DNA of 15,689 nucleotides from a virus (taxonomy: Duplodnaviria; Heunggongvirae; Uroviricota; Caudoviricetes): IMG/VR virus record IMGVR_UViG_3300029009_000076; one strand, given 5' to 3'. Below, one piece after another: positions 604 to 15,689 of this stretch. How positions within the stretch are numbered: the stretch's first letter is position 1; every line of letters begins with the position of its first letter. A model generated the notes under the pieces. The model was not told the origin of the DNA. It worked only from the letters and a program-made list of their open reading frames with translations, and did no database searches. The translations under genes and the position numbers were made by a program.

Positions 604-604
604 A

Positions 605-820
605 TCATGAGTCTTTGATAAACTGATTTATCTTTGGATAGTTGTACCAGATAATCCCTCGTTTGCTGTCTGGCTTACCTAAAGGAGATACTCGTTTGAA
701 GTGGAAGCCCTCCACCCAACAGTTCTGGCGGTATGCTTCAATTTGTCTGGCCCCCAGACCAGTGCGAAGCATCAGGCCGTATTCAACCATCCACTCTTCA
801 TTAAAGATTACTTGTGCCAT
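605..820 (-). CDS. xisR: Excisionase-like protein, 71 aa
   Basis: Protein [32 protein letters not shown]... recognised as Rac YdaQ/XisR; stop TGA (605-607) lies 1 nt from the int start codon. The ORF track extends the start to 844; the internal ATG at 820 matches the 71-aa form. Confidence 0.7.
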
Positions 821-898
821 CGCATCACCTCTGGCAGGCGCCAATGTTAGACTGAAATTGACGCCCGATGTTGATTATTAATAATCAGCTATGAAGTT

Positions 899-1108
899 TT
901 AATTTGAATACAATGCAATTCTCGAGGACTGAAGTTTCTCGCAATTAAAATTTATCAGTTTTACTTTCTGCTCTCTGGAAACGCCTGCTTCTTTTTTACC
1001 TGAGAGCATTTTTTCGCATTCTGATTTCGTTAGTTTAGATTTTGAATATCTTGTCCAGTTAGTAGGAGTGCCACCTTCCTTTTCAATAGTGGCGGTAATT
1101 TTATACAT
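899..1108 (-). CDS. ydaC: Small Rac protein YdaC-like, 69 aa
   Basis: MYKITATIEKEGGTPTNWTRYSKSKLTKSECEKMLSGKK... recognised as YdaC; start ATG at 1108-1106 overlaps the 3' end of ralR by 8 nt. Confidence 0.65.
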   Translation of the reverse strand: MYKITATIEKEGGTPTNWTRYSKSKLTKSECEKMLSGKKEAGVSREQKVKLINFNCEKLQSSRIALYSN

Positions 1109-1295
1109 GAACACCTCCATTATTATTTCCAGTGGTTCGTTTATTCCATCTTTCGAGTGCTTCTTTTTCACTTCCACCATAACCGGTTCGGGATTCGCAT
1201 CCGTTACACTTCGCTCGGTAATATCCTGAAATGGCTTTCACCGTTACTGATGGACAACCACAAAATGGACATGGTTTAACATTGTCATATCTCAT
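1101..1295 (-). CDS. ralR: Restriction-alleviation protein / type I toxin RalR (Lar family), 64 aa
   Basis: MRYDNVKPCPFCGCPSVTVKAISGYYRAKCNGCESRTGYGGSEKEALERWNKR... has the Cys-rich Lar-type motif; start ATG at 1295-1293. Confidence 0.8.
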   Translation of the reverse strand: MRYDNVKPCPFCGCPSVTVKAISGYYRAKCNGCESRTGYGGSEKEALERWNKRTTGNNNGGVHV

Positions 1296-1351
1296 AATTT
1301 TTCTCATAAAAAATATTTCAAGTTGGCGGTGCATTACACCGCCAGGCTGAA

Positions 1352-2161
1352 TTATTCCTCTGAATTATCGATTACACTGTATTCCCCGGTTAATACAGAG
1401 GAATCTGCAGGATCGATTGTCAGTGGTTCCTTTTCATCCATTGATACTGCACGCTGGATCTCAATTGATACGGGCAGATATTTGAACAGGCGACGAATAG
1501 CCGTTTTCTTTGCCATTTCTTCCCAGTGAGTTACCCACGGCCCGTTATTACCAGCTTTACTCAGGCTGCGCACCAGCTCAATCTGTTTGCGCGTCATAAC
1601 TTCAAACTGAGTACCTCCGTCTTTCAGTCTTGCGACAGCATAGACGTGGGTAACCGGGGCATCTTCGTTTTCTCCCGGGCGGTGTATTAACTTTTCATCA
1701 AGGCCAAATTCGAAGCTAAACTCGTCACCTTCACGGACAACACGGGCTGACAGGCTGGCGATTTGACCAGAACGGCGAGCCAGATCAATCATGCCGCGAT
1801 AGCCAATGATTAGCTGAACGTTCTTTTTACCGCTCTTTTCGTTTTTATTACCAAAAGGCAGTAAATATGCATGACCGAGGGCGCTACCTGGCTCAAGTCC
1901 GAGCTGTGAACACTGTACGATCGCACTGACAAAACTCATAGTGTCACAGTTTCCTAACGCCGGAACTTTACGAATTTCTGTGGTGGCGATACGGATCATA
2001 CGTTCAGCCGTCATATGGCGTGGAAGAGCTGCTGCCAGTTGCTCTTTCATTGATGGCTGGTTAATAAAACTAATCACGTCGCTATTTTTAACTGCTGCTG
2101 GTGCACGGTTTCCCTGAGTTTTTTGCAGATCGGCTTTTGCGATTGGTGGTTGCTTAGTCAT
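1352..2161 (-). CDS. recT: Recombinase RecT (single-strand annealing protein), 269 aa
   Basis: Protein from [24 protein letters not shown]... recognised as RecT; start ATG at 2161-2159 overlaps the recE stop by 8 nt. The ORF track's upstream extension to 2218 is not used. Confidence 0.9.
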
Positions 2162-4754
2162 TTGCATATTCCTTAGCCCAGCGGGGCAGTGATAATGTCT
2201 TAATAGCTGGCCATTCATCGGTATTCAGGCAGTCAGACAGGGTTCGCAGATTGCGGTGATATTCCTGTTGACCTGCCAGTTTTGCTTCTTCGCCCATCAT
2301 GAAAATTTCAACCGGATAACGTCCGCATTCAATAGTTGTGCTGGCAACCAGAAAAACGAAAGTTGGCTGCACTCCAAACTGTGCTTCATAACCGTCACTG
2401 TAGAATGCATCCTGAACGTGATAGCGGTAGTCGTAATAAGCGGTTTTGAATCGTTGAATATCCGCCGTAGTTTTCACGTCCATGATCCAGTGAAATTCAG
2501 GGATAATTTTGTCCGGACGGCACCGACACAAAATTCCTGTTTCAGGATCTTCCCAGTAAATTGATGATTCAGCGTGTCCGGCGCTTTCAACAAGCCATTG
2601 CCCCAGCGGCAAAGCCATAACGCTTTGATACATGAGTTCAATTTTCCGGCCTTCTTCCGCAGTGATAACCGTTTTTCCTGTGCTTGCGCATTCCATCAGA
2701 AACGCTTTCTCTTCTTCTTTTCCGGCGTTTGTACGGCGGTTAAATTCAGGTGCTACGATAAAGCGGTTACTGAATTCTTCCGGTTCAAGTACCCGGCAGT
2801 GGAAAGCAGTTCCTAAATCGAGCGTTTTTGTCTTTGTGGTGTCCACGGGGGCATTTTTACGCCACAAATATAGTGCCGGAGTATCAGCAATGTCATCGAG
2901 CTGAGACTTACTGATACCGGGACCCGCGTGGTAATTCTCATTCGAAATTCCGTAATAAATACCTGGCTCTATGTCTTCTACGATTACGGGATCTGCGACT
3001 TCGCCAGTTTCATCACTGCAATCGCGATGCGGATCGCTGCCAGCATTCTCATTGTGCGGATGTTCAGCGCCTTCCATTTCCTCCGGATCATTTTCCTTAG
3101 CTTCAACCTGACTCTCTTCATCGAATGTTTCCTGGTATGTTGCGTCGCCCATCACCGCACCACAGTCAGGGCAGTTATCCCCGCCAGTCTGGCCGCAGGC
3201 ATTGCAGGCTATTTCCGGTTCCTGTTGCACTACTGGCTCAGGTTGATTCATATCTGGGCTGGTTTTTTCCGTTTCTGGCTGGTTCTGGTACACACAATCG
3301 CGAGTCTGGATCCCCTTTACCCATTTCGGATCGTTCGGGTCGCTAATTCCGTCAACAAATTCACCACGTGATGCAGCAAGCAATTTATCGGCATCGACAG
3401 GATTTTTTGATGGAATGTTTTTCCGGGCTTCATGGAGTTCTGCCCGCAGTTCCTGATATTTCGCATCAACAGAATTTACCTGTGACTGAGCATCCAGCGG
3501 CTGCGTGTCCTGATGATGTTCAGTTGCGTCCGGTTCCATTGTTTCAGCCTCTCCCTGTTCAACTGCCGTTGTTCCAGATGGTTGCGGTTTTTCTTCATCA
3601 TCCTGTTTTCCTTCTTCTGTTACTCGCTGCGGCATCGGGGCAGAGGAGCGACCGCAGGCAATATCCACGATTTCCGGATCAGGGTTGGCATGATCGGTTT
3701 CAGTCAGTACTTTGTTCAGATATTCAGTGACGTGCGCGGGGATGACCTCGATCCCAATTGGTGCTTCTTTTACGGACGCAACCACGATGGCGCGGGAATA
3801 ATCCAGCCCGCCAGGCATGGTGATGAATTTGTCGCGGAAAACAGAAAAGGGCGGTTTATTTTCAGCGATAATTTCCTCAATGCGTTTAGCGTGTGCCGGA
3901 TGAAGGTTATAGATGTCCAGATCCATTGAACGGGCCAGTACGCCAGTGGCTACGTCGCGCGCCAGTGACGTCAGATCGTGTACGAAACCTTCGCCGCGAT
4001 CGGTGAGGTTTCCGCCGCCAGCATTAGCACCGGAAGCCGTGCGAGTGATGTGTGAAACACGATTACCCTTCATCCACTCTTTTGTCAGCAGTCCTCGATC
4101 GGTGTAGTCAGCGTTCAGGTATGCTTCGAAAAAAGCAGTTATCAGTCCCAGGTTTGAATTACCAGGATTAGGGAAAACTTTGTCAGTGTCACGAACCAGT
4201 TTGTGGAGTTCGCGAATTTCCAGCGGGTCGAGCAGGCTGGTTTTGTGGGAAACAGCCAGGGCAGTAACAGCCGGTAGTTCTTCAGCCCGAGCAATGTGTA
4301 ATGCCTGGAGTCCGTCGCGTGAAACGTGCGTTACCGGTTTTTCGCTGCCGTGTTGAGCAAGCCAACGAATGGGCAGTTCCTGGCCAGAAATTGGGAGTAG
4401 CATATTCTCCTCAATCTCAGTCATGTCTTCGCCGTTGACGTTGGTATTGCCTTGATAGTGAGCGTTGTCTGGTGCTGCTCCCGGTTTTAGTTCCCATGTC
4501 ATGGAGTCTTTGCTGAGTTGATAGCGTTCACTCCAGGTAAAATCGATCTCACCTTCAGCGGGCAGGTCATTAACGACAGGAAAATTCGTGGCAACAGCTT
4601 TAAAATAGCTGCTCAGTTTTTTACCTGACTTAACGATCAGGTAGTCCAGAGTGGCACAGGTCGATTCAAAATCGTTGCTTGCCCACAGGACGACGTCAGG
4701 TTCACCGGATGATTTTTTCGCTTTCCGTAACAGGAAGAGTGGTTTTGTGCTCAT
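2154..4754 (-). CDS. recE: Exodeoxyribonuclease VIII RecE, 866 aa
   Basis: Full 866-aa [32 protein letters not shown]...; acidic central region and C-terminal nuclease domain as in RecE; sits directly upstream of recT in one operon. Confidence 0.9.
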
Positions 4755-4825
4755 TGTTTTTTAACCTCAACTCAGATTAAAATTCGTTTTGTTCAGTGAA
4801 TGATCTTGCCGGATACACACTGTTC

Positions 4826-4857
4826 ATAGCCTGCGCCATACGCAGGCTATTTCTTTC
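4826..4857 (+). terminator. Intrinsic-terminator-like hairpin oriented on the plus strand, between recE and racC
   Basis: Perfect 10-bp stem ATAGCCTGCG / CGCAGGCTAT with 5-nt loop (4826-4850) followed by TTCTTTC; the T-tract is only on the plus-strand side. Confidence 0.4.
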
Positions 4858-5131
4858 AGATTTCACCTTTTAATTTCATTGCAATTAGAGTTGCCAGAAA
4901 TTCGGCTTTTTTTTCTGCGGGCAGATTCTTTCCGATATGCACCAGGCACATTTTTTTGACACCTTCATCAAGTGTTTTTACGTTGCCTGATGGACCATCG
5001 ATATCAACCACAGTGAATGGGGTTTCTTTATTTTCTGTTTTAATTACGTAGCCAATGCGCTTTCCTTCCAGATTCACCTCGTGAACAATGTCATCGGTAG
5101 TTACAACAGTGGCTTCATAATTGGTAATCAT
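4856..5131 (-). CDS. racC: RacC, 91 aa
   Basis: MITNYEATVVTTDDIVHEVNLEGKRIGYVIKTENKETPF... recognised as RacC; ATG at 5131-5129 is preceded (on the minus strand) by AAGGAG. The ORF track's longer start at 5179 is not used. Confidence 0.75.
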   Translation of the reverse strand: MITNYEATVVTTDDIVHEVNLEGKRIGYVIKTENKETPFTVVDIDGPSGNVKTLDEGVKKMCLVHIGKNLPAEKKAEFLATLIAMKLKGEI

Positions 5132-5205
5132 GTTTTTCTCCTTAATTAAGGTTGAGCGAATACCTGCCATTTCTGGCATAAATTCAGTTTCGAATAGTCA
5201 ATTAA

Positions 5206-5376
5206 TTAAAGTTCATGTGCCATCTGGTCTTTTTCGGCACAAGCTTCACTGCAATATTTTCTCGGTTCGTCTTTTGATAAAATCCCGTGCATGAAGTGAA
5301 GCATTCTTTCAATAGCTTTGCTTTCTTCAACGTCTTTTTTGCAAAGGTGGTAAGCACATTTTATTTTCTTAGTCAT
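5206..5376 (-). CDS. ydaE: Small Cys-rich (probable zinc-binding) protein YdaE, 56 aa
   Basis: Not in the ORF track (too short). Reverse-strand translation [56 protein letters not shown]; start ATG at 5376-5374 shares 1 nt with the kilR stop. Confidence 0.7.
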   Translation of the reverse strand: MTKKIKCAYHLCKKDVEESKAIERMLHFMHGILSKDEPRKYCSEACAEKDQMAHEL

Positions 5377-5597
5377 CACCATGACTCCGCCTTTACAGGT
5401 AAACCATCACGACCGAGGAAGACTTTAATCATGCGGTCAGTAATGCATGTTTTTGTGGTCAGGTTACGAATATATAGTTTTCGCTTTTTAATATTGTTTG
5501 CCGAGGCAATATATGTCCGGCCTTCATGAAGAACATAATCGCCAGGAGTCACACACTGACGTGGTATTTCATCAGTTCCGAAGTGATGTGCAATCAT
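5376..5597 (-). CDS. kilR: KilR, cell-division (FtsZ) inhibitor toxin, 73 aa
   Basis: [46 protein letters not shown]... recognised as KilR; GGAGA Shine-Dalgarno upstream of ATG 5597-5595. Confidence 0.8.
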
Positions 5598-6038
5598 AAT
5601 TATCTCCATTTTTACAAATGAACTTTGTTGATGCGGTGCCTGGTGCCTCCAGGTGACTGCAACCAGTTAACAATTACAGTCGGCTTTCCCACCCAAACCA
5701 ATAAGGACTAACATGACTTTTAACTGTGCCACGTGCGCTTAGCCGCATTCACCGCATCACAAAATTCACTTTAAAAAGGGCGGACATCAGCCGAACTTCA
5801 AGAAAAAAACTGATGCCGCCAGGACTACACACAGCAATGTCGTTATTTACAACCGGAGGCGCACTCCCACCATTTAAATTTAACAGACAAGACCGACTCT
5901 TTATGGATATCGGAAATGCGCCTTCGTGTTGTGCCCGGTTTTATTTCACCACCTCCGGGCTTCGGTGGTCTCGGCTATACCCCTACAGCGAGAGCTTGTG
6001 TTAACATTTCAATACCCTTACAGTTGAGAGTTATTGAT

Positions 6039-6527
6039 ATGTTGGATGTATTTACTCCATTGTTGAAACTTTTTGCTAACGAGCCACTCGAAAGACTTAT
6101 GTATACGATTATCATTTTTGGTCTCACTCTCTGGCTGATACCGAAAGAGTTTACTGTCGCATTCAATGCTTATACTGAAATACCTTGGCTCTTTCAGATT
6201 ATCGTTTTTGCCTTTTCTTTCGTGGTCGCCATTTCCTTCTCAAGATTGCGAGCGCATATTCAAAAGCATTATTCATTACTACCAGAGCAACGAGTATTGC
6301 TTCGTTTATCTGAGAAAGAAATCGCTGTATTTAAAGATTTCCTTAAAACAGGAAATCTTATTATCACTTCTCCTTGCCGTAACCCGGTTATGAAAAAATT
6401 AGAACGGAAGGGCATCATTCAACATCAGAGTGATAGCGCAAACTGTTCTTATTATCTCGTCACCGAAAAATACTCCCATTTTATGAAGTTATTCTGGAAC
6501 AGCAGGAGTAGACGTTTTAATCGTTAG
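6039..6527 (+). CDS. sieB: Superinfection exclusion protein SieB, 162 aa
   Basis: MLDVFTPLLKLFANEPLERLMYTIIIFGLTLWLIPKEF... with hydrophobic N-terminal helices; ATG at 6039. The ORF track's upstream extension from 5916 is not used. Confidence 0.8.
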   Translation: MLDVFTPLLKLFANEPLERLMYTIIIFGLTLWLIPKEFTVAFNAYTEIPWLFQIIVFAFSFVVAISFSRLRAHIQKHYSLLPEQRVLLRLSEKEIAVFKDFLKTGNLIITSPCRNPVMKKLERKGIIQHQSDSANCSYYLVTEKYSHFMKLFWNSRSRRFNR

Positions 6528-6679
6528 CTTACTGTGTGCTTCTCCAACCATCGGCGCGCACCAGTTTCGGTTTTAAATGTTTTGCTTTTGGTATACGTCA
6601 TGGCAGTGAACGTTCCATCCTGGTTGGGGAACACGCCGCACACCAGGGATTCGTTGTTGCCGAGGTCGATTTTTTGCAT
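6524..6679 (-). CDS. ydaF: Small Rac protein YdaF-like, 51 aa
   Basis: Not in the ORF track. Reverse translation MQKIDLGNNESLVCGVFPNQDGTFTAMTYTKSKTFKTETGARRWLEKHTVS; GAGGTG Shine-Dalgarno before ATG 6679-6677; 3' end overlaps the sieB stop convergently. Confidence 0.6.
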   Translation of the reverse strand: MQKIDLGNNESLVCGVFPNQDGTFTAMTYTKSKTFKTETGARRWLEKHTVS

Positions 6680-6689
6680 TTTTCGCACC

Positions 6690-6824
6690 TCACATCTTGT
6701 TGTTGCGGATAGAGGCTTCTGCTTGCCAGAGATCCCAGTCGTTGCTACGTAAAGCCTGCACAGCCGGGCTGTAAGTGATACCGCAACAATCCATCAAATA
6801 CTGAACTACTTCGTAATGCACCAT
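6690..6824 (-). CDS. ydaG: Small Rac protein YdaG-like, 44 aa
   Basis: C-terminal 44 aa of ORF 6690..6983: MVHYEVVQYLMDCCGITYSPAVQALRSNDWDLWQAEASIRNNKM; GGGGAGAGA Shine-Dalgarno before ATG 6824-6822. Confidence 0.6.
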   Translation of the reverse strand: MVHYEVVQYLMDCCGITYSPAVQALRSNDWDLWQAEASIRNNKM

Positions 6825-6840
6825 CTTATCTCTCCCCTTA

Positions 6841-7242
6841 ACGCCGGGTATATGGACCATCTGTCGTGGTGCCACAATGGTGGATGGTAAGCCCGTCATA
6901 CCGGGAATGAGGCTGTCGAAGGAAAAATGCGACCAGGTTAACGCTATTGAACGTGATAAGGCGCTGGCATGGGTGGAGCGCAATATTAAAGTACCACTGA
7001 CCGAACCACAGAAAGCGGGTATAGCGTCATTTTGTCCCTATAACATTGGCCCCGGTAAGTGTTTCCCGTCGACGTTTTATAAGCGGCTGAATGCCGGTGA
7101 TCGTAAGGGTGCATGCGAGGCGATTCGCTGGTGGATAAAAGATGGTGGGCGCGATTGCCGCATACGTTCAAATAACTGCTATGGACAGGTTATTCGTCGT
7201 GACCAGGAAAGCGCATTAGCCTGTTGGGGGATAGATCAGTGA
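6841..7242 (+). pseudogene. 5'-truncated phage lysozyme-type endolysin (R-like); roughly the N-terminal 40 aa, including the likely catalytic/SAR region, are missing
   Basis: Frame is open from 6817; the part ...PGIWTICRGATMVDGKPVIPGMRLSKEKCDQVNAIERDKALAWVERNIKVPLTEPQKAGIASFCPYNIGPGKCF...ACWGIDQ aligns by eye to lambdoid prophage lysozymes (RrrD-like), but no N-terminal region or plausible start is present; stop TGA 7240-7242 overlaps the Rz start. Confidence 0.65.
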
Positions 7243-7703
7243 GCAGAGTCGCCGCGATTATTTATGCTCTGGTTATCTGCATCATCGTCTGCCTGTCATG
7301 GGCTGTTAATCATTACCGTGATAACGCCACCGCCTACAAAGAGCAGCGCGACAAAAATGCCAGAGAACTGAAGCTGGCGAACGCGGCAATTACTGACATG
7401 CAGATGCGTCAGCGTGATGTTGCTGCGCTCGATGCAAAATACACGAAGGAGTTAGCTGATGCGAAAGCTGAAAATGATGCTCTGCGTGATGATGTTGCCG
7501 CTGGTCGTCGTCGGTTGCACATCAAAGCAGTCTGTCAGTCAGTGCGTGAAGCCACCACCGCCTCCGGCGTGGATAATGCAGCCTCCCCCCGACTGGCAGA
7601 CACCGCTGAACGGGATTATTTCACCCTCCGGGAACGACTGGTAATGATGCAGGCCCAACTTGAAGGTGCTCAGCAATACATAACCGAACAGTGTTTAAAG
7701 TAA
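7239..7703 (+). CDS. rzpR: Rz-type i-spanin (inner-membrane spanin), about 154 aa, apparently intact
   Basis: [60 protein letters not shown]... is near-identical in pattern to lambda Rz; likely GTG start at 7239 overlapping the endolysin stop (the track offers TTG at 7224). Confidence 0.8.
7459..7644 (+). CDS. rzoR: Rz1-type o-spanin lipoprotein, 61 aa, embedded in the +1 frame of Rz
   Basis: [52 protein letters not shown]...: signal peptide with lipobox ...VVGC and a proline-rich mature part; AAGGAG Shine-Dalgarno at 7446-7451. Confidence 0.8.
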
Positions 7704-7840
7704 AATCTTAACTACAATATGATTCATTTTGATGATTGTTTCATAAGGAACAGTGAAGTAAGATCTAAGAGGAGTTAAATTTTATACAGTATAATCATAA
7801 TATTGCAGCAAGGTGGTTATAATTGAAAGAATATTTAGAT

Positions 7841-9298
7841 ATGAATACATCTCATGTAAGAGTTGTTACTCATATGTGTGGGTTCCTGGTTTGGCTCTAT
7901 AGTCTTTCAATGTTGCCACCAATGGTTGTAGCATTGTTTTATAAAGAAAAAAGCCTATTCGTTTTCTTTATAACTTTCGTTATATTTTTTTGCATTGGTG
8001 GCGGAGCGTGGTATACAACTAAGAAATCTGGCATTCAATTACGTACCCGTGATGGGTTTATTATAATTGTAATGTTTTGGATTTTGTTTTCTGTTATTAG
8101 TGCATTCCCTTTATGGATTGACTCAGAACTTAATTTAACGTTCATTGATGCTCTGTTTGAAGGGGTTTCTGGAATAACAACAACAGGAGCAACTGTAATT
8201 GATGATGTTAGTTCATTACCTCGGGCATATTTGTACTATCGGTCACAGTTAAATTTTATAGGTGGTTTAGGAGTTATTGTTCTGGCGGTTGCTGTATTGC
8301 CATTATTGGGTATTGGTGGTGCAAAGCTTTATCAGTCAGAAATGCCGGGGCCATTTAAGGATGACAAACTCACTCCCCGCCTGGCCGATACGTCACGGAC
8401 ACTGTGGATAACTTATTCTTTATTAGGTATTGCTTGTATTGTCTGTTATAGACTTGCAGGAATGCCTTTGTTTGATGCTATTTGTCACGGGATTTCCACA
8501 GTTTCGCTTGGTGGTTTCTCAACTCATAGCGAGAGTATCGGATATTTTAATAACTATTTGGTTGAGCTGGTGGCTGGTTCTTTTTCCCTGCTATCGGCTT
8601 TCAACTTCACTCTTTGGTATATTGTTATTAGCAGGAAAACGATAAAACCTTTAATCAGAGATATTGAACTTCGTTTCTTTCTGTTAATAGCCTTAGGGGT
8701 GATCATTGTTACCTCTTTCCAGGTCTGGCATATAGGTATGTATGACTTGCATGGAAGTTTTATTCATTCGTTTTTTCTTGCCAGCTCCATGCTCACTGAT
8801 AATGGTTTAGCTACGCAGGATTATGCAAGCTGGCCCACGCACACGATAGTGTTTTTGCTGTCGTCAAGTTTCTTTGGGGGATGTATAGGTTCAACTTGTG
8901 GTGGAATTAAGTCACTTCGATTTCTTATACTTTTCAAACAAAGCAAACACGAGATAAATCAGCTTTCTCATCCCAGAGCGTTGTTGAGTGTAAATGTAGG
9001 AGGGAAGATAGTTACAGATCGTGTAATGAGGTCTGTATGGAGTTTCTTTTTTCTTTATACTCTCTTCACGGTGTTTTTTATACTGGTGTTAAATGGTATG
9101 GGATATGATTTTCTTACATCATTTGCAACAGTGGCTGCATGTATTAATAATATGGGATTAGGTTTTGGGGCTACTGCATCGTCATTCGGAGTGCTTAATG
9201 ACATTGCAAAATATTTAATGTGCATAGCTATGATTCTTGGTCGCCTTGAAATTTATCCTGTTATTATATTGTTTTCAGGTTTTTTTTGGCGCTCCTAA
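7841..9298 (+). CDS. trkG: Potassium uptake protein TrkG (TrkH/TrkG family), 485 aa; prophage moron
   Basis: MNTSHVRVVTHMCGFLVWLYSLSMLPP... is a polytopic membrane protein recognised as TrkG; gene and flanks are visibly AT-rich compared with neighbouring phage genes. The track's TTG start at 7823 is an alternative (see findings). Confidence 0.85.
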   Translation: MNTSHVRVVTHMCGFLVWLYSLSMLPPMVVALFYKEKSLFVFFITFVIFFCIGGGAWYTTKKSGIQLRTRDGFIIIVMFWILFSVISAFPLWIDSELNLTFIDALFEGVSGITTTGATVIDDVSSLPRAYLYYRSQLNFIGGLGVIVLAVAVLPLLGIGGAKLYQSEMPGPFKDDKLTPRLADTSRTLWITYSLLGIACIVCYRLAGMPLFDAICHGISTVSLGGFSTHSESIGYFNNYLVELVAGSFSLLSAFNFTLWYIVISRKTIKPLIRDIELRFFLLIALGVIIVTSFQVWHIGMYDLHGSFIHSFFLASSMLTDNGLATQDYASWPTHTIVFLLSSSFFGGCIGSTCGGIKSLRFLILFKQSKHEINQLSHPRALLSVNVGGKIVTDRVMRSVWSFFFLYTLFTVFFILVLNGMGYDFLTSFATVAACINNMGLGFGATASSFGVLNDIAKYLMCIAMILGRLEIYPVIILFSGFFWRS

Positions 9299-9384
9299 TA
9301 TATGGCTGATTTATAATTGTGAGTTTAATATTATATTGACTCACTCATTGATCCAATACCTAACTTTACCAGCAACACCTCCGC

Positions 9385-9420
9385 CCCCAGTAGCACTGGC
9401 TGCTGGGGTGCGTTTTATTC
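9385..9420 (+). terminator. Putative intrinsic terminator downstream of trkG
   Basis: 10-bp stem (9385-9394 / 9399-9408, one G-U pair) with 4-nt loop, followed by TGCGTTTTATTC. Confidence 0.45.
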
Positions 9421-9435
9421 ATAAAGCAAGGCTGT

Positions 9436-10224
9436 ATGAGCGAGAAATTAAAGATAGTCTATCGCCCATTACAAGAATTGTCACCGTATGCGCACAACGC
9501 CAGGACGCACAGTACTGAGCAGGTGGCACAACTGGTAGAAAGTATTAAGCAATTCGGCTGGACTAATCCGGTGCTGATTGACGAAAAGGGCGAAATTATT
9601 GCGGGTCACGGTCGTGTTATGGCGGCTGAAATGCTCAAAATGGATTCTGTTCCGGTCATTGTTCTGTCTGGCCTGACGGATGAGCAGAAAAAGGCGTACC
9701 GCCTGGCAGATAATCGCCTACCAATGAATGCTGGCTGGGATGAAGATCTGTTGCGGATGGAGCTGTCGGACCTAATCAATGCTGATTTTGATGTCTCCCT
9801 GACAGGCTTCGGCCCGACAGAAATTGATGAACTGTTGACGGATGTTTTGCCCGGTACAGGAAATAAGGAGGAGCCGTATACGACGAAAATTGATACGCCT
9901 GTTTATGAGCCGTCGGGCGGTAAACCGGATATCAGTGAACTGTACGACGATACGAAAACTCAGGAGCTGATCAGCCGGATACGTTCGGCGTCCCTTGATC
10001 CTGATATTGAGAAATTCCTCCTGTGTGCGGCAGAACGTCACACGGTGTTTAATTTCAGCAGAATTGCGGACTATTACGCTCATGCCCCCGCTGAAATTCA
10101 GTGCCTTTTCGAGGAGTCGGCGCTGGTGATCATTGATTATCAGCAGGCTATTGAAAATGGATTTGTCCGAATGACGCAGCGCATGGTGGCGATCATGCAT
10201 AGCGGGGAGGAGGAATATGCGTGA
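9436..10224 (+). CDS. ParB/Srx-like nuclease-domain protein, 262 aa (apparent full-length counterpart of the short K-12 Rac ynaK)
   Basis: N-terminal region IVYRPLQELSPYAHNARTHSTEQVAQLVESIKQFGWTNPVLIDEKGEIIAGHGRVMAAEMLKMDSVPVIVL has the ParB N-terminal domain pattern (GHGR in the position of the ParB arginine box); the C-terminal half is of unknown type; stop overlaps the next gene's start. Confidence 0.7.
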   Translation: MSEKLKIVYRPLQELSPYAHNARTHSTEQVAQLVESIKQFGWTNPVLIDEKGEIIAGHGRVMAAEMLKMDSVPVIVLSGLTDEQKKAYRLADNRLPMNAGWDEDLLRMELSDLINADFDVSLTGFGPTEIDELLTDVLPGTGNKEEPYTTKIDTPVYEPSGGKPDISELYDDTKTQELISRIRSASLDPDIEKFLLCAAERHTVFNFSRIADYYAHAPAEIQCLFEESALVIIDYQQAIENGFVRMTQRMVAIMHSGEEEYA

Positions 10225-11470: not shown

Positions 11471-12049
11471 GTGAGTCAGTTGATGGCCATTGTCCAGGCC
11501 GACCCCAATCAGTTGGCACAATTTCGCCGTGTTAACTGCCGTTATTGCTGGGGCGAGAATCATCACTACCAGTGGCGCGATATAGCAGAATTCGATAAGG
11601 CAGCGGCGCAGGCCTCCAGAGATGGCAAACCCGAGCCGGAATATGGTGGCCTTGGCTTTGTTGATAACGCCATACCCAATCCGGACTGCCCGAAGTGCTG
11701 CGGTGAGGGAACGGGGCAGCTTTATATGGCTGATACCACTCTGCTTGATGGGGAAGCGCGGCAATTATATGCAGGGGCAAAGCTCGGAAAATTTGGTGTT
11801 GAGATCCTGCTGGAGGATAAGGCTGCCGCCCGGCGTGAATTGTTGCGTTTGCTTGCTGCTGGTGGGGCTTTATGTGCAGATAAGCGGCTACAGGAACTGG
11901 AAATTGAACGGCGCAGAATGGAAAACCAGAAGCTGCGCAAAGAGATCGAAACGGTGGAAGATAATGAACATCCCCAACCTGTGGCGATCAATATTAATGT
12001 GGTTGATGCCAGAGTAAGGAGTGATGAAGATGATCTCTCCGACGCTTAA
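11471..12049 (+). CDS. Putative terminase small subunit, 192 aa as given in the ORF track (possibly the 3' part of a frame-disrupted gene)
   Basis: Position immediately upstream of, and overlapping, the terminase large subunit; Cys4 cluster (CRYC ... CPKCC) and charged coiled-coil-like C-terminus (LQELEIERRRMENQKLRKEIE). The only start is GTG; the frame is open from 11426 and a 44-aa ATG ORF (11340-11474) overlaps in another frame. Confidence 0.5.
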   Translation: MSQLMAIVQADPNQLAQFRRVNCRYCWGENHHYQWRDIAEFDKAAAQASRDGKPEPEYGGLGFVDNAIPNPDCPKCCGEGTGQLYMADTTLLDGEARQLYAGAKLGKFGVEILLEDKAAARRELLRLLAAGGALCADKRLQELEIERRRMENQKLRKEIETVEDNEHPQPVAININVVDARVRSDEDDLSDA

Positions 12050-13049
12050 TGTGCCTCAGGCGCGATTTCTTTCAATGCCCCATAAATTTAAAGCCTATAT
12101 TGCTGGTTTTGGCTCGGGCAAAACATGGGTTGGGTGTGGCGGCATATGCAAGGGGATTTGGGAGCATCCAGGTATAAATCAGGGATATTTTGCGCCAACG
12201 TATCCCCAAATTCGCGATATTTTTTACCCTACAGTGGAAGAAGTTGCTGCTGACTGGGGATTGAACGTAAAAATTAATGAGGGAAATAAAGAGGTTCACT
12301 TTTATTACGGACGCCAGTATCGGGGAACCACTATCTGCAGATCGATGGAGAAGCCACAAACGATCGTCGGTTTCAAAATTGGTAATGCGTTGGTGGATGA
12401 ACTGGACATTTTGCCGAAGGAAAAAGCCAGAACGGCGTGGCGCAAGATAATTGCGCGTATGCGTTATAAGATTGATGGACTTCGCAACGGTATTGACGTT
12501 ACAACCACGCCGGAAGGATTCAAATTTGTCTACGAGCAGTTTGTTAAAGCCGTGCGTGAAAAAACAGAGCTGGCCTCACTGTATGGTCTGGTGCAGGCAT
12601 CTACTTTCGATAATGAAAAGAACCTGCCAGCAGATTACATTCCTTCGCTTCTTGAATCATACCCTCCAGAGCTGATTAAAGCCTATCTGCGAGGACAGTT
12701 TACTAACCTGACAAGTGGTACTGTTTACCATCAGTTTGACCGGAAACTGAATAATTGCGAAGAAGTGGAGCAGCCAGGGGAGCCGATTTATATTGGGATG
12801 GATTTTAACGTTGGAAAGATGGCGGGAATCGTCCATGTGCTGCGTTTGGGGCTTCCATGTGCGGTAACTGAAATCATCAATGCCTACGATACGCCGGATA
12901 TGATCCGCATCATTAAAGAACGCTTCTGGCCGTATGACGGGCATGATTACCGGAAAGTGAGGGAGATTTATATTTATCCAGATGCTTCCGGAGATTCCAG
13001 AAAATCAAGTAACGCAAGTACGACGGATATACCCGGATCGCAACAGTAA
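12030..13049 (+). pseudogene. Terminase large subunit, ATPase domain only; truncated at the start of the nuclease domain
   Basis: Walker A AGFGSGKT and Walker B-like ALVDELDIL; AAGGAG Shine-Dalgarno at 12016-12021; the ORF ends after IYIGMDFNVGK... at about 340 aa, whereas full-length large terminases have a C-terminal nuclease domain beyond this point. Confidence 0.7.
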
Positions 13050-13741
13050 GCGGTAATACATCCCTTATAACAGCCAAAGCTGAACAACAGGGCGAGTGGA
13101 CCTACTATGAGGCCACTTATACAGCTAATACGGACATTGATACCGTTAACTGTGCTTTTTATATGACAAATAAAATAAGTAATGAGCCATTCTATGATGA
13201 CTCAACATTAACCATGACGACGCCGCAAATTGAACTGGGCAATACGGCATCGTCATTTATTGTAACTACAATGCCAACAACACGCGCAAGTGATGTGGTT
13301 ACTATCCCCTCGGCGAATAACCTGTCAACACGGCCTTTTACAGTATTGTGCGAAGTAAGGAGGAACTGGAGTACACCGCCCAATGTTGCGCCAAGGATAT
13401 TTGATGTTGGAGGGCACAGTATTGATGATAATTATTTATCGCTGGGGTTTGTTTCAACAGGAAAGATAAGCGCCAACGTAGGAATGGTTCAGCCACAAAT
13501 TTCCTCAGATGGAGAAAGGTTCATTGTGGGTGTGAGAGCTAAATCTGATTTATCAGTAAATGCAATATGCAATGGTAATTATACAACAAACCTTAATGGT
13601 AAAATATTTGGAGTTACAGCAACATCGTACCGGTTTGGTGGGCAGACCGCAGCAGGAACGCGTCATTTGTTTGGACACATCAGAAATTTCAGAGTCTGGT
13701 TTAAAGAATTAAATGACAGGCAAATCAAGGAGGCAGTATGA
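13013..13741 (+). pseudogene. Phage tail / tail-fibre protein, 3' fragment
   Basis: Frame is open from 13013 with no plausible start (the track's ATG at 13163 is internal); Thr/Ser/Asn/Gly-rich beta-type sequence ...TYYEATYTANTDIDTVN ... GKIFGVTATSYRFGGQTAAGTRHLFGHIRNFRVWF...; position corresponds to the Rac tail-protein remnant. Family assignment is weak. Confidence 0.45.
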
Positions 13742-14016
13742 AAGATTTAACTTTGAAATTTCCTGGTAACAGAGAGTTTAAATCCTTCCTGTCATCTCTT
13801 GACTGGGAGGAAGATGAAGACCTCCAGAATAAACTGTTAGTCGATGAAATTGGTTTCACCTACACAGAAACAGGGGTAACTGAAGAGGGAGAACCTGTCT
13901 GTATCCGGAATAACGGTTATTTTGTCAACATTCGCATTCTTGATGACTTGTTTGATGTTTCTGTATTCTCTGATTATGTCGTGGAGCTGGAAACACCGCT
14001 TCGGGAATGGAGCTGA
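13738..14016 (+). CDS. Hypothetical acidic protein, 92 aa
   Basis: AAGGAGG Shine-Dalgarno at 13727-13733; ATGA overlap with the end of the tail-fragment frame; no recognisable motif. Confidence 0.5.
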   Translation: MKDLTLKFPGNREFKSFLSSLDWEEDEDLQNKLLVDEIGFTYTETGVTEEGEPVCIRNNGYFVNIRILDDLFDVSVFSDYVVELETPLREWS

Positions 14017-14028
14017 AAGGAGGAAATA

Positions 14029-14322
14029 ATGGATATAAGCCCCTTACTTCATGCACTTTGTGCTGTGGCTGCGCAGATACTGGTTGGTCTTTTTACCGGA
14101 AACTGGGCTTACGGAGCGATAGCCGGTTGTACGTTCTTCATTGCGCGTGAACATACCCAGGCAGAATATCGCTGGATTGAAATGTTCGGGCATGGCAAGC
14201 GAATGAATATGCCGTGGTGGGGCGGTTTTGATCCGCGCGCGTGGGATGTGGCAAGCCTGATGGATTTTGCTGTGCCGGTGGTGGCGTGTCTGCTGGTCTG
14301 GCTGTTGGTTAATCGTGGGTGA
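14029..14322 (+). CDS. Hypothetical small membrane protein, 97 aa, two or three predicted transmembrane segments
   Basis: Near-consensus Shine-Dalgarno AAAGGAGG at 14016-14023; hydrophobic stretches [34 protein letters not shown] and [18 protein letters not shown] with a Trp/Arg-rich loop between. Confidence 0.6.
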
Positions 14323-14329
14323 AAAAAGG

Positions 14330-14452
14330 TGGGCTGTATATGCAACGGAGGAAGAAACCTCGTTGCTGGAAGCATGGAAAAAGTATCGGGTATTGCTGAA
14401 CCGTGTTGATACGTCAACTGCACAGGATATTGAATGGCCAGCACTGCCGTAG
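14330..14452 (+). pseudogene. Tail fibre assembly protein (Tfa), 3' remnant of about 40 codons
   Basis: ...[39 protein letters not shown] matches the conserved C-terminus of lambdoid Tfa proteins as I recall it; no N-terminal part or start codon; begins immediately after the membrane-protein stop. Confidence 0.6.
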
Positions 14453-14548
14453 GGTAAAACATATAAATTCTATAATTAGATGTATCTTTCCATTTACGGC
14501 AAGGAAGGGGGCTTGGAAGACGTAAAGCATCTCACACCGAGATTATTT

Positions 14549-15139
14549 TTATATGTCAGGTGTCTGAAGTTTTGCTTTGGCTCTTAAAATGGTTTGCCGC
14601 GAGGTTTTGAATTCCCGGGCAATGGCACTTATACTTACACCTGACTTAATTCGTTCGAATACCACCTGTTTCTGTTCTTCATTTAACACAGGTGGTCGAC
14701 CAAAACGTTTCCCTGCGCCGCGGGCTCTTACTATCCCGGAATGAGTGCGTTCAAGTAAAAGGTCTCGTTCAAATTCAGCGACTGCTGAAATTACTTGCAT
14801 CATCATTTTTCCTGTTGGACTGGTCAGGTCAATGCCCCCCAATGCTAAGCAATGCACTCTGATACCTGTTTCGGTCAGTTGTTCCACTGTTTTCCTGATA
14901 TCCATTGCATTACAACCAAGGCGATCCAATTTTGTCACAATCAATTGATCACCACATTTCAGGCGAGCAAGCAACCGGTTAAAACCAGGACGCTCACTGG
15001 TTGCTGCTGAGCCACTAATGTGTTCTTCGATTATTTGCTGAGGTTTGATTTTAAAACCTGCACTTTCGATTTCCCGGCGTTGATTTTCGGTGGTCTGATC
15101 CAGCGTTGATATCCGACAGTAAGCAAAAATTTGAGACAT
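14549..15139 (-). CDS. pinR: Serine recombinase / DNA invertase Pin, 196 aa
   Basis: [29 protein letters not shown]... with catalytic Ser in the YCRIST motif and a C-terminal HTH; recognised as PinR. Confidence 0.9.
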
Positions 15140-15455
15140 AGTGAGACTCTATACGAAATTGGTGTTCATATCATAATGCATCTCAGAAAATAATTATGAT
15201 TATTTTTGTGCATATTTGTATGTACACGTTCGAAAATAAACGAATGCGTATGCAACCCCGTAATTTTGGTGAGACCCAAAATCGATTTTGTGAAAAATGG
15301 CTTTAACTCGGTTTGTTTTTCGAGTTCCGGGCGGACTCAAGGAAGAAGAATAGTGTTGCGTGTTATTTTAACCAGATTTCAAGTTGTTTGGTCGTGGAAA
15401 AGTGGAGCAAAATGTTGTTAAAGTGGAAAAATGATAAAAAAGTAAGTTTATTATA

Positions 15456-15689
15456 TTACATTTTACCATTTAAATTTTGGTTGTCTTTAAGAACTGATAT
15501 CGCTGTTTGTAATAATTCTTTGTTATCCAGCCATGATTTTTTCTTTATGTTTCCTTCAATGTAATCAAGCAATGTTCTGGTATTGATAGGTCTTCCCTGT
15601 TTTGCTACTTCCACTACAGCATCCCCTAGGATAATTCTTACTTCAGGAAGCTGCGCAGGGAACCACTTTAGGGTGTCTTTTGATTTCAT
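15456..15689 (-). CDS. ynaE: YnaE/YdfK-family small prophage protein, 77 aa; start codon at the window edge
   Basis: MKSKDTLKWFPAQLPEVRIILGDAVVEVAKQGRPINTRTLLDYIEGNIKK... recognised as YnaE/YdfK-like; ATG at 15689-15687. Confidence 0.65.
   Translation of the reverse strand: MKSKDTLKWFPAQLPEVRIILGDAVVEVAKQGRPINTRTLLDYIEGNIKKKSWLDNKELLQTAISVLKDNQNLNGKM

What the first reader, a model, noticed from the sequence alone, without database searches (positions are those of the whole stretch)
13738..14452. Small acidic protein and small membrane protein wedged between a tail-fibre fragment and a Tfa remnant, next to Pin
Two short genes with near-consensus ribosome-binding sites (AAGGAGG, AAAGGAGG) occupy the place where a tail-fibre assembly gene would be expected; only the last ~40 codons of tfa survive, starting right after the membrane-protein stop. 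Small membrane proteins encoded beside receptor-binding tail genes are a known location for receptor-masking superinfection-exclusion factors (Cor and Llp are examples), so this pair could be an exclusion or host-modulating cargo.
Basis: inference. Interest (0 to 1): 0.55.

Follow-up and report, generated by a model that had tools for sequence, protein, structure and literature searches.

The report
Fibre helper gene plus membrane cargo gene
Two real, conserved small genes sit at the end of a decayed Rac-type prophage tail-fibre operon, but they are not a pair: the acidic one always accompanies one type of sugar-binding tail fibre, while the other encodes a very common small inner-membrane protein of unknown function that temperate phages carry and that some bacteria keep as a core gene.

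Summary
ORFs 13738-14016 (92 aa, pI 4.1) and 14029-14322 (97 aa, three predicted helices) have strong ribosome-binding sites. They lie between a truncated tail-fibre gene and the last 37 codons of tfaR, next to pinR. The same cassette, with an intact fibre gene, is in E. coli B (REL606, BL21) and in phage 21.

- **92-aa gene (PHROG 1361):** it overlaps the stop codon of a fibre gene with a LamG/ConA-like tip by 4 nt. This holds in temperate phages and in many virulent siphoviruses that lack the 97-aa gene. It is most likely a fibre assembly or joint protein, taking the place of Tfa.
- **97-aa gene (PHROG 1443, UniRef "Ybl63"):** it moves as a separate module. Homology to other loci starts exactly at its ribosome-binding site, and its GC content is 54% against 41% for its neighbours. 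It occurs in 35% of complete E. coli genomes, follows several kinds of receptor-binding gene, survives only as a decayed remnant in virulent phage HC6, and is a core chromosomal gene in Aeromonas.

The 97-aa protein is not Cor/Llp-like: it is not a lipoprotein and shows no homology to them. An inner-membrane lysogen-protecting role is the best guess, and it is untested.

The parts
13029..13741 (+). C-terminal remnant (about 238 codons) of a Rac(B)/phage-21-type side tail fibre gene with a LamG/ConA-like tip. The N-terminal part has been deleted and the remnant abuts a truncated terminase gene.
   Evidence: Homology to the intact 675-aa REL606 fibre gene starts at 13029. It matches phrog_1419 'tail protein' positions 598-793 at 1e-64. 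The Pfam Laminin_G_3 match is weak (1e-4). The tip is 37-40% identical to the fibre tips of phage 21, KurtStettler and IrisVonRoten, and the last ~36 residues are conserved.
13738..14016 (+). 92-aa acidic protein (PHROG 1361): a fibre-linked accessory gene, proposed to be an assembly chaperone or fibre-joint protein.
   Evidence: It has a 4-nt ATGA overlap with the fibre stop codon and an AAGGAGG ribosome-binding site. It matches phrog_1361 at 4e-39. It occupies the same position after LamG-tipped fibres in phage 21 and in virulent phages. pI is 4.08. The model is an alpha/beta fold with pLDDT 90.6 and no informative structural neighbour. dN/dS is 0.17-0.53.
14016..14322 (+). 97-aa three-helix inner-membrane protein (PHROG 1443, UniRef 'Ybl63') with its own ribosome-binding site: an independently mobile cargo gene.
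   Evidence: It matches phrog_1443 at 2e-58. The AlphaFold2 model has pLDDT 94 with helices 4-23, 26-53 and 74-96. DNA homology to loci with a different upstream gene starts at 14016-14018. GC is about 54% against about 41% upstream. It is in 1,918 of 5,426 E. coli genomes and is a core chromosomal gene in Aeromonas. dN/dS is 0-0.23.
14341..14452 (+). 3' remnant of the tail-fibre assembly gene tfaR (last 37 codons with the stop): the scar left by the replacement.
   Evidence: K-12 homology resumes at 14341. Caudo_TAP positions 95-130 of 131 match at 3e-16. REL606 annotates it as a pseudogene. Phage 21 shares the junction through 14398.
14549..15139 (-). pinR, a serine DNA invertase (context only).
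   Evidence: Resolvase and HTH_7 domains match. It is 99.4% identical to the K-12 pinR region.

Best explanation
A recombination event replaced the distal part of stfR and most of tfaR in a Rac-type prophage with a foreign receptor-binding module, leaving 37 codons of tfa as a scar. The module holds two functionally separate small genes.

**The 92-aa acidic protein** is the dedicated partner of the LamG/ConA-like fibre tip. It is translationally coupled to the fibre gene. It most likely acts as that fibre's assembly chaperone, or as a joint protein that docks a second, distal fibre. In this role it fills the place of Tfa without being related to it. In this window its fibre partner is truncated, so it is probably idle.

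**The 97-aa protein** is a separate cargo gene made of a ribosome-binding site plus an ORF. It has been appended to the 3' end of receptor-binding-protein operons. It encodes a three-helix inner-membrane protein with an invariant polar cluster (H8, R40, E41, Q44, E46, W72, D79) on one face of the membrane.

Its most likely role is inferred and not shown: it acts at the inner membrane of the lysogen or infected cell to change the envelope or to block entry of incoming phage DNA. That is protection of the lysogen, and it is not receptor masking at the outer membrane.
For: **Replacement.**
- K-12 homology stops upstream and resumes at 14341, inside tfaR.
- REL606 and BL21 carry the same cassette with an intact fibre gene.
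- Phage 21 shares the fibre-end, 92-aa, 97-aa and tfa-scar junction at 93% DNA identity.

**92-aa gene.**
- It has a 4-nt overlap with the fibre stop codon in the window, phage 21, KurtStettler and IrisVonRoten.
- Of 143 phage records with a homologue, 113 are below 60% identity. The below-60% records sampled are nearly all virulent siphoviruses. Most sampled rows list both the small protein and a tail or tail-fibre protein under the match.
- The preceding fibres share the same C-terminal domain, with a conserved last ~36 residues.
- The window/phage-21 recombination breakpoint (13630) keeps that fibre end together with the 92-aa gene.
- In other phages a second fibre gene follows. It has a Peptidase_S74 domain and a conserved N-terminal motif, M[AV]T[SK]T[VI]IPxDIT[TK]LK.

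**97-aa gene is independent.**
- Homology to L009, L010 and L011 starts at 14016-14018, which is its ribosome-binding site.
- There is a GC step from about 41% to about 54%.
- Only 4 of 50 loci have the 92-aa family nearby.
- It sits directly after diverse receptor-binding genes: LamG-tipped fibres, S74 fibres, a tailspike, a gpJ-type tip protein, and tfa in phiHAP-1.
- It occurs at 3,959 places in 1,918 E. coli genomes.

**97-aa gene is constrained.**
- Comamonas and Aeromonas homologues are 57-64% identical to it, with invariant polar residues.
- dN/dS is 0-0.23.

**Link to lysogeny and not to fibre assembly.**
- The phage records that cover most of the protein are almost all temperate.
- In virulent phage HC6 it is a decayed 51-codon remnant.
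- Virulent phages with the same fibre and 92-aa module lack it.
Against: - No function has been shown for either protein. Neither has a Pfam, NCBIfam, PADLOC or PDB relative, and the structural neighbours are uninformative.
- The 97-aa gene has no recognisable promoter or terminator of its own. The mobile unit begins at the ribosome-binding site. It is packed within -28 to +36 nt of the upstream late gene in about 20 loci. It therefore looks co-transcribed with late genes, which is not what a prophage-expressed exclusion gene usually looks like.
- Core chromosomal copies in Aeromonas (pirin-X synteny in 5 loci) and copies next to ligA in alphaproteobacterial genomes show a cell-autonomous function that need not involve phages.
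- Several Aeromonas phages of other types also carry full or partial homologues.
- Membrane topology is ambiguous. The N-tail is acidic and the C-tail basic, but the conserved loop carries about 5 K/R.
- In this window the upstream operon is broken, so expression is uncertain.
Confidence: 0.5

Rival explanations
1. One reading: the two genes together are an exclusion cargo that masks the outer-membrane receptor of the neighbouring fibre, in the manner of Cor or Llp.
For: The genes lie next to receptor-binding genes, which is a known location for cor and llp (established knowledge). The 97-aa gene recurs next to LamG-tipped fibres in distant taxa: Escherichia, Comamonas, Pantoea and Chelativorans.
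Against: - The 92-aa gene is present in virulent phages without the 97-aa gene and is coupled to the fibre gene.
- The 97-aa protein is a three-helix integral membrane protein with no basic N-terminal region. The lipobox-like Cys is a Cys in only 9 of 99 family representatives.
- There is no similarity to any annotated exclusion family.
- Chromosomal core copies exist outside prophages.
Confidence: 0.07
2. The 97-aa protein works in the lytic cycle. It would be a late membrane protein made together with the tail fibres, for example a holin-like or lysis-timing factor, or a factor that stops progeny or secondary phages from injecting into the dying cell.
For: - It is tightly packed behind late genes with its own strong ribosome-binding site and no promoter.
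- It has three helices and about 100 aa, as class I holins do.
- A lysozyme gene is the next sizeable gene in 3-4 of 48 loci.
- There are up to 7 copies per E. coli genome, roughly one per prophage, which suggests a benefit to the phage itself.
- Homologues occur in Aeromonas phages of other types, including one in the left-end cluster of small genes of a 43.8-kb phage.
Against: - Phage 21 and the other lambdoid carriers are expected to have a separate lysis cassette (established knowledge; not checked in these records). REL606 Rac has its own lysis genes.
- The protein lacks a charged C-terminal tail.
- 60% identity across genera and core chromosomal copies are not typical of holins.
- It has decayed in virulent phage HC6 and is absent from virulent phages that share the fibre module.
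Confidence: 0.2
3. The 97-aa protein is a general bacterial membrane-physiology factor, for example in ion, metal or lipid/LPS homeostasis. Phages carry it as a fitness gene with no role in phage resistance.
For: - It is a vertically inherited core gene in Aeromonas, with conserved synteny pirin -> X -> <- RIO1-like kinase <- two LpxM paralogues in 5 loci.
- It lies next to ligA in alphaproteobacterial genomes.
- All 439 representative clusters are stand-alone proteins of about 60-146 aa.
- The invariant H/R/E/Q/E/W/D cluster looks like a binding or catalytic site.
Against: In phages it is placed almost exclusively right after receptor-binding genes and not in the usual accessory regions. No fusion or conserved neighbour points to a pathway.
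Confidence: 0.2
4. In this particular window both genes are silent leftovers of a decayed prophage and do nothing.
For: - The fibre gene is truncated and fused to a broken terminase gene.
- No promoter-like site was found upstream on the plus strand.
- The 92-aa gene shows 8 nonsynonymous against 4 synonymous codon differences compared with phage 21.
Against: Both ORFs are intact and identical to the REL606 alleles. The 97-aa gene has 0 nonsynonymous and 3 synonymous differences compared with phage 21. The family as a whole is under purifying selection.
Confidence: 0.25

Closest known systems
Tail fibre assembly proteins (lambda Tfa, Mu U, P2 G; Pfam Caudo_TAP)
   Same: The 92-aa gene sits immediately downstream of the fibre gene and is translationally coupled to it. 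It co-varies with the fibre tip and occupies the position that tfaR holds in K-12.
   Different: There is no sequence similarity: no Caudo_TAP hit for the 92-aa protein, while the adjacent tfa scar does hit. It is half the size, very acidic, and has a different predicted alpha/beta fold with no known structural neighbour. In other phages it is followed by a second fibre gene, so it may be a joint protein and not a chaperone.
Cor (phi80, N15, HK022) and Llp (T5) receptor-masking exclusion proteins
   Same: They are small genes next to receptor-binding genes.
   Different: By established knowledge, Llp is an outer-membrane lipoprotein that blocks FhuA, and Cor also inactivates FhuA. The 97-aa protein is a three-helix integral membrane protein without a family-wide lipidation site, and it has no homology to them.
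Inner-membrane superinfection-exclusion proteins (T4 Imm, HK97 gp15, P22 SieA)
   Same: These are small integral inner-membrane proteins encoded by phages. HK97 gp15 is a moron inside the structural gene region (established knowledge). This is the closest functional analogy for the 97-aa protein.
   Different: No sequence relationship was detected. The 97-aa gene has no promoter or terminator of its own. It has core chromosomal orthologues in bacteria. No exclusion phenotype is known.
Cargo positions behind tail-fibre genes (P2 Z/fun position; exchangeable loci of lambdoid prophages; O-antigen conversion genes next to tailspike genes)
   Same: The 97-aa gene is present or absent between related phages, differs in GC from its neighbours, and sits at the end of the fibre operon. 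In phiHAP-1 it lies between tfa and the sheath gene, the position that Z/fun occupies in P2.
   Different: It is not an independent transcription unit by the tests available. Its function is unknown, and it has no similarity to Fun/Z, Gtr or Oac proteins.
Two-protein lateral tail fibres of T5-like and small siphoviruses (LtfA/LtfB of DT57C; BASEL phages)
   Same: The order is a proximal fibre followed by a distal fibre with a Peptidase_S74 chaperone domain. These fibres are thought to bind O-antigen glycans (PMC4728585, PMC8594841).
   Different: The DT57C papers do not mention a small intervening protein, and both DT57C fibres carry S74 domains. Here the proximal fibre ends in a LamG-like domain followed by the 92-aa gene. 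In this window and in phage 21 the distal fibre is missing.

Membership tests
PHROG 1361 (unknown function), for the 92-aa protein | Full-length profile match | tested here: met
   E = 4e-39, residues 1-91 against profile positions 1-91 of 92.
PHROG 1443 (unknown function), for the 97-aa protein | Full-length profile match | tested here: met
   E = 2.4e-58, residues 1-96 against profile positions 1-96 of 97. UniRef calls the exact sequence Ybl63.
Caudo_TAP / Tfa tail-fibre assembly proteins, for the 92-aa protein | Sequence match to Pfam PF02413 | tested here: not met
   The only Pfam hit at E <= 1 is a sub-threshold LUD_dom match. The adjacent tfa scar matches Caudo_TAP at 3e-16.
Caudo_TAP / Tfa tail-fibre assembly proteins, for the 92-aa protein | Gene immediately downstream of the fibre gene and co-inherited with the fibre tip | tested here: met
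   A 4-nt overlap is seen in four phage or prophage contexts, together with a shared LamG-like tip.
Caudo_TAP / Tfa tail-fibre assembly proteins, for the 92-aa protein | Required for folding or trimerisation of the fibre tip | not testable with these tools
   This needs a deletion mutant or a multimer structure prediction.
Cor/Llp receptor-masking proteins, for the 97-aa protein | Lipoprotein signal peptide: basic N-terminal region, hydrophobic region, lipobox Cys | tested here: not met
   The N-tail has a mean of 0.19 K/R and 1.1 D/E. 'IAGC' at residues 31-34 fits a lipobox only in the close subfamily, and position 34 is a Cys in 9 of 99 representatives. The model places it inside helix 26-53.
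Cor/Llp receptor-masking proteins, for the 97-aa protein | Sequence similarity to Cor or Llp families | tested here: not met
   All PHROG hits are families of unknown function, and there are no Pfam or PADLOC hits.
Cor/Llp receptor-masking proteins, for the 97-aa protein | Blocks adsorption through an outer-membrane receptor | not testable with these tools
   This needs adsorption and plating assays.
Moron (Hendrix/Juhala definition), for the 97-aa gene | Present or absent between otherwise related phages, with sharp boundaries | tested here: met
   Homology to L009-L011 begins at 14016-14018. The gene is absent from virulent phages that have the same fibre and 92-aa module.
Moron (Hendrix/Juhala definition), for the 97-aa gene | Base composition differs from that of its neighbours | tested here: met
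   GC is about 0.54 over 14050-14349, against 0.39-0.42 over 13300-14049.
Moron (Hendrix/Juhala definition), for the 97-aa gene | Own promoter and terminator | tested here: not met
   No plus-strand promoter-like or terminator-like site lies between 12900 and 14600. The mobile unit starts at the ribosome-binding site. The consensus scan is crude, so an internal promoter is not excluded.
Holins, for the 97-aa protein | Small protein with one or more transmembrane helices | tested here: met
   Three helices are predicted, with hydrophobic stretches at about 4-39 and 74-96.
Holins, for the 97-aa protein | Adjacent to an endolysin gene, with a charged C-terminal tail | tested here: not met
   In the E. 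coli loci the gene follows fibre genes. Lysozyme is the next sizeable downstream gene in only 3-4 of 48 loci. The C-tail is 0-6 residues in most members, with a mean of 0.7 K/R.
Invertible tail-fibre segment (Mu G, P1 C, e14 P) controlled by the adjacent invertase | Inverted crossover sites with an AAACCnnGGTTT-like core flanking the segment, and an alternative fibre tip on the other strand | tested here: not met
   Only a 76%-complementary 29-nt inverted repeat was found, at 13062-13090 and 14564-14592. No core-like site lies near the cassette. No fibre-like ORF is on the minus strand.

The most novel reading that the evidence does not exclude
The 97-aa protein (Ybl63, PHROG 1443) could define a new, very widespread class of phage-carried inner-membrane factor. 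Its invariant polar cluster (H8, R40, E41, Q44, E46, W72, D79) would form a small catalytic or binding site. Through that site it would remodel a lipid-linked glycan or lipid A/LPS intermediate, or block the inner-membrane step of DNA entry. Either way it would protect lysogens from phages that use glycan-binding (LamG-type) fibres. It would have been recruited from a bacterial housekeeping gene that is still core in Aeromonas, where it lies next to two LpxM paralogues.
Probability: 0.15. Interest if true: 0.7.

Novelty: new member of a known kind. Interest (0 to 1): 0.35.

Why it matters
The 97-aa gene is among the commoner prophage genes of E. coli. It is in 35% of complete genomes, with up to seven copies per genome, and it is present in the laboratory strains BL21 and REL606 and in phage 21. 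Even so, it has no Pfam family and no literature that I could find.

Showing what it does would explain a recurrent terminal gene of fibre operons in temperate phages. It could also add a new inner-membrane exclusion or envelope-modifying mechanism.

The 92-aa protein matters for engineering phage host range. LamG-tipped lateral fibres in lambdoid phages, T5-like phages, Queuovirinae and Dhillonvirus all appear to travel with it. Swapping such fibre tips will probably require moving the 92-aa gene along with them.

Tried and rejected
- **Family searches.** Pfam, NCBIfam and PADLOC gave nothing significant for either small protein. A profile search of PDB sequences also gave nothing.
- **Domain fusions.** All 439 representative clusters of the 97-aa family are stand-alone small proteins.
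- **Lipoprotein idea.** A lipobox-like 'IAGC' at residues 31-34 looked promising. I rejected it because the Cys is not conserved across the family and the N-terminal region is acidic.
- **Invertible-segment idea.** The only bracketing inverted repeat is weak, and no invertase crossover core is present.
- **Guilt by association.** Upstream and downstream neighbours across 50 loci show no consistent non-phage partner. The LpxM neighbourhood in Aeromonas is convergent and 1.2 kb away. The adjacent kinase is a PA4780-type RIO1 kinase and not a Kdo kinase. This is a lead only.
- **Literature.** Searches on the accession numbers, on 'Ybl63' and on phage 21 with sitABCD found nothing relevant. The DT57C and BASEL papers do not mention the 92-aa protein. 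The Tai tail-assembly-inhibition paper is unrelated.
- **RNA families.** Rfam found only RalA, far from the cassette.
Full report
**1. What is in the sequence**

The window is the right-hand part of a Rac-type prophage. It aligns at more than 99.9% identity with the Rac region of E. coli B REL606 over 4-9666 and 13029-15689, and with K-12 Rac over three shorter stretches.

The finding's coordinates hold two ORFs.
- ORF 13738..14016 encodes 92 aa. AAGGAGG lies 4 nt upstream of the ATG, and the ATG overlaps the stop codon of the preceding ORF.
- ORF 14029..14322 encodes 97 aa. AAAGGAGG lies 5 nt upstream of the ATG.

The 92-aa protein is strongly acidic, with pI 4.08, 21 D+E and 8 K+R. The 97-aa protein is hydrophobic, and its AlphaFold2 model is confident (pLDDT 94) with three helices at 4-23, 26-53 and 74-96.

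Downstream, homology to K-12 resumes at 14341, 19 nt after the 97-aa stop codon. That stretch is the last 112 nt of tfaR. Its translation matches Pfam Caudo_TAP positions 95-130 of 131 at 3e-16. pinR follows on the other strand.

Upstream, the fibre gene really is a fragment. Homology to the intact 675-aa REL606 fibre gene begins at 13029, about codon 438, directly after a truncated terminase large-subunit ORF.

**2. Both ORFs are genuine genes**

- Each matches a PHROG family of unknown function over its full length: phrog_1361 at 4e-39 and phrog_1443 at 2e-58.
- Both are annotated as CDS in REL606 (WP_000654171, WP_000355360) and in phage 21.
- Pairwise dN/dS is 0-0.23 for the 97-aa gene and 0.17-0.53 for the 92-aa gene.
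- The 97-aa ORF is not an alternative frame of stf or tfa. K-12 tfaR homology starts only after its stop codon.

**3. The replacement event**

K-12 has the order stfR, tfaR, pinR. Here, in E. coli B and in an Escherichia ruysiae prophage, the distal fibre and most of tfa are replaced. The replacement consists of a fibre tip with weak Laminin_G_3/ConA-like similarity (phrog_1419) plus the two small genes.

Phage 21 carries the same arrangement at 93% DNA identity from 13630 to 14398. That includes the 19-nt spacer and 58 nt of the tfa scar, before the sequence turns into sitDCBA. The junction between the 97-aa stop codon and the tfa scar is therefore old, and these elements share it.

**4. The 92-aa gene belongs to the fibre**

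- tblastn finds it in 143 phage records. Of these, 113 are below 60% identity. The below-60% records sampled are nearly all virulent siphoviruses: T5-like phages, Seuratvirus/Nonagvirus, Dhillonvirus and other small siphoviruses. Most sampled rows list both the small protein and a tail or tail-fibre protein under the match, which reflects the overlap of the two genes.
- In KurtStettler, IrisVonRoten and phage 21 the 4-nt overlap is the same as in the window.
- The preceding fibres share the same C-terminal domain at 37-40% identity. The extreme C-terminus is especially conserved: RFGGQT..G.RHLFGHIRNFR.WHKELTDRQ.KE.V.
- The window/phage-21 breakpoint at 13630 keeps exactly that fibre end linked to the 92-aa gene.
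- In the virulent phages and in some prophages (L009-L011) a second fibre gene follows. It has a Peptidase_S74 chaperone domain. These second fibres share an N-terminal motif, M[AV]T[SK]T[VI]IPxDIT[TK]LK, although the rest of each protein is different.

This modular pattern is a conserved end of fibre 1, then the 92-aa protein, then a conserved start of fibre 2. It is what one expects of a fibre joint or of a tip-specific chaperone.

The protein has no Caudo_TAP similarity and no informative structural neighbour. It is a positional substitute for Tfa and not a relative of it. The step from tight linkage to 'chaperone or adaptor' is inference.

**5. The 97-aa gene is a separate, mobile unit**

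- When the window is compared with loci where the upstream gene is a different (S74-type) fibre, DNA homology begins at 14016-14018. That is precisely the ribosome-binding site. In L009 the homology continues through the tfa scar into pinR.
- GC rises from about 41% in the fibre tip and 92-aa gene to about 54% across the 97-aa gene.
- Among 50 genomic loci recovered with family-specific peptide patterns, only 4 have a 92-aa homologue nearby.
- In phage contexts the gene sits within -28 to +36 nt of the last receptor-binding gene. That gene can be any of several kinds:
  - LamG-tipped fibres in Escherichia, Comamonas, Pantoea and Chelativorans;
  - S74 fibres;
  - a tailspike in Leclercia;
  - a gpJ-like tip protein in Comamonas;
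  - tfa in Halomonas phage phiHAP-1, where it lies between tfa and the sheath gene, the position of Z/fun in P2 (the P2 position is from established knowledge).
- In E. coli it is very common: 3,959 places in 1,918 of 5,426 complete genomes, with up to seven per genome. Close alleles of the 92-aa gene occur at 1,203 places.

**6. The 97-aa family also lives outside phages**

In five Aeromonas loci from four species the gene lies in conserved synteny. The order is pirin, then the gene, then on the opposite strand a PA4780-type RIO1 kinase and two MsbB/LpxM paralogues. The gene is 84-97% identical among these loci, and no phage genes lie within 6 kb in the one locus with gene calls.

In two alphaproteobacterial or unclassified proteobacterial metagenome-assembled genomes it follows ligA.

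A profile search of 1.8 billion representative proteins finds 439 clusters. All are stand-alone proteins of about 60-146 aa. Across 99 full-length representatives the nearly invariant residues are H8, R40, E41, Q44, A45, E46, R48, R58, W72, D79 and P83. In the model these lie at the same end of the helices. This looks like a binding or catalytic site, but no known family matches.

**7. What the 97-aa protein is not**

- **Not Cor/Llp-like.** There is no basic N-terminal region. The lipobox-like IAGC at 31-34 is confined to the close subfamily, where position 34 is a Cys in only 9 of 99 representatives, and it lies inside a predicted helix. No exclusion or defence family matches.
- **Not convincingly a holin.** It is not next to an endolysin gene in E. 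coli, it has no charged tail, it is far too conserved, and it has core chromosomal copies.
- **Not part of an invertible segment.** The only bracketing inverted repeat is weak, no crossover core is present, and there is no alternative fibre tip on the other strand.

**8. Most likely role of the 97-aa protein, and its weak points**

Three observations tie it to the temperate lifestyle and not to fibre assembly.
- The phage records that cover most of the protein are almost all temperate: phage 21, Lambda_ev phages, mEp460, ECOR prophages and phiHAP-1.
- Virulent phages that share the fibre and 92-aa module lack it.
- In virulent phage HC6 it is a decayed 51-codon remnant behind an S74 fibre gene. 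Three more records (ST1UNAM, PBM-2 and HC8A) give the same kind of partial, unannotated match, but I did not inspect them.

The position behind receptor-binding genes is a classical place for cargo that protects the lysogen.

I therefore favour an inner-membrane protective or envelope-modifying role. The nearest analogies are T4 Imm, HK97 gp15 and P22 SieA (PMC10883804 describes SieA as an inner-membrane exclusion protein).

Several observations count against this.
- The gene has no promoter or terminator of its own and looks co-transcribed with late genes.
- Aeromonas phages of other types carry full or partial homologues.
- The core chromosomal copies show a function that does not require a phage.
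- In this window the upstream operon is broken, so the gene may be silent.

My estimates for the 97-aa protein are about 0.35-0.4 for a lysogen-protective role, about 0.2 for a lytic-cycle role and about 0.2 for general membrane physiology.

**9. Verdict**

The two genes are ordinary in the sense that both belong to existing families of hypothetical phage proteins and are already annotated. Two points are new here.
- The supposed pair resolves into a fibre accessory gene and an independent cargo gene.
- The cargo gene is a strongly conserved and very common inner-membrane protein family. It has bacterial core members, and no paper on it turned up in the searches I ran.

Interest is moderate. 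The gene is easy to test, because it is present in BL21, REL606 and phage 21 and absent from K-12.

Noticed in passing
window 12021-13163 (junction near 13029-13049): A terminase large-subunit ORF (N-terminal 342 aa, Terminase_6N) ends where homology to the middle of the Rac(B) fibre gene begins. A deletion has therefore removed everything from the terminase C-terminus to fibre codon ~437. None of 5,426 complete E. coli genomes contains this junction: no match covers more than 52% of a 201-nt probe.
   Followed up: partly
window 924-1102 (+): The RalA antitoxin sRNA of the RalR/RalA system scores 225 bits against Rfam. This confirms the Rac identity of the left part of the window.
   Followed up: no
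window ~6847-6849: Compared with REL606, about 1 kb is missing between the sieB/ydaF side and the lysozyme gene. The missing stretch holds essD, a YdfR-family gene and a hypothetical gene. Compared with K-12, the block from racR to ydaW is absent, as it is in REL606.
   Followed up: no
window 13062-13090 and 14564-14592: A 29-nt inverted repeat, 76% complementary, brackets the fibre tip, both small genes and the tfa scar. One arm lies in the 3' end of pinR. No invertase crossover core (AAACCnnGGTTT) lies nearby, so it is probably chance.
   Followed up: yes
window 14050-14349: GC content is about 54% over the 97-aa gene, against 39-42% over the fibre tip and the 92-aa gene.
   Followed up: yes
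L007, L012, L014, L018, L019 (Aeromonas chromosomes), near position 5001-5303 or 6001-6309: The 97-aa family is a core gene in conserved synteny: pirin, then the gene, then on the opposite strand a PA4780-type RIO1 kinase and two MsbB/LpxM lipid A acyltransferase paralogues. This is a possible but weak link to lipid A or LPS.
   Followed up: partly
L058 (Escherichia phage HC6) 2965-3120: In a virulent phage, an unannotated 51-codon remnant of the 97-aa family (…NIPWWGGFDWRAWDLPSLLD) lies directly behind an 859-aa fibre-like protein that ends in an S74-type chaperone region. Partial matches of the same kind occur in ST1UNAM, PBM-2 and HC8A.
   Followed up: partly
L009:3918, L011:4286, L003:5289, L004:5289 (second fibre genes): Distal fibre proteins that follow the 92-aa gene share the N-terminal motif M[AV]T[SK]T[VI]IPxDIT[TK]LK in both temperate and virulent phages, although the rest of each protein is unrelated. 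This is a likely docking peptide.
   Followed up: partly
L002 (phage 21) 6295-6370 and 6386-9835: Phage 21 keeps 58 nt of the same tfa scar after the 97-aa gene. It then carries the sitDCBA iron/manganese transporter genes on the other strand.
   Followed up: no
L015 (Comamonas kerstersii) 3551-5300: The same three-gene order recurs at low identity: a phrog_5939 fibre (17% identical tip), a 95-aa ORF with a 4-nt overlap that is a weak possible homologue of the 92-aa protein (hhalign E = 0.009), and then a 97-aa homologue at 64% identity.
   Followed up: partly
window 14109-14462 (-): A 117-aa ORF on the opposite strand overlaps the 97-aa gene and the tfa scar. RefSeq annotates no gene on that strand at the corresponding place in REL606, and the ORF does not look like a fibre protein. 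It is presumably spurious.
   Followed up: no
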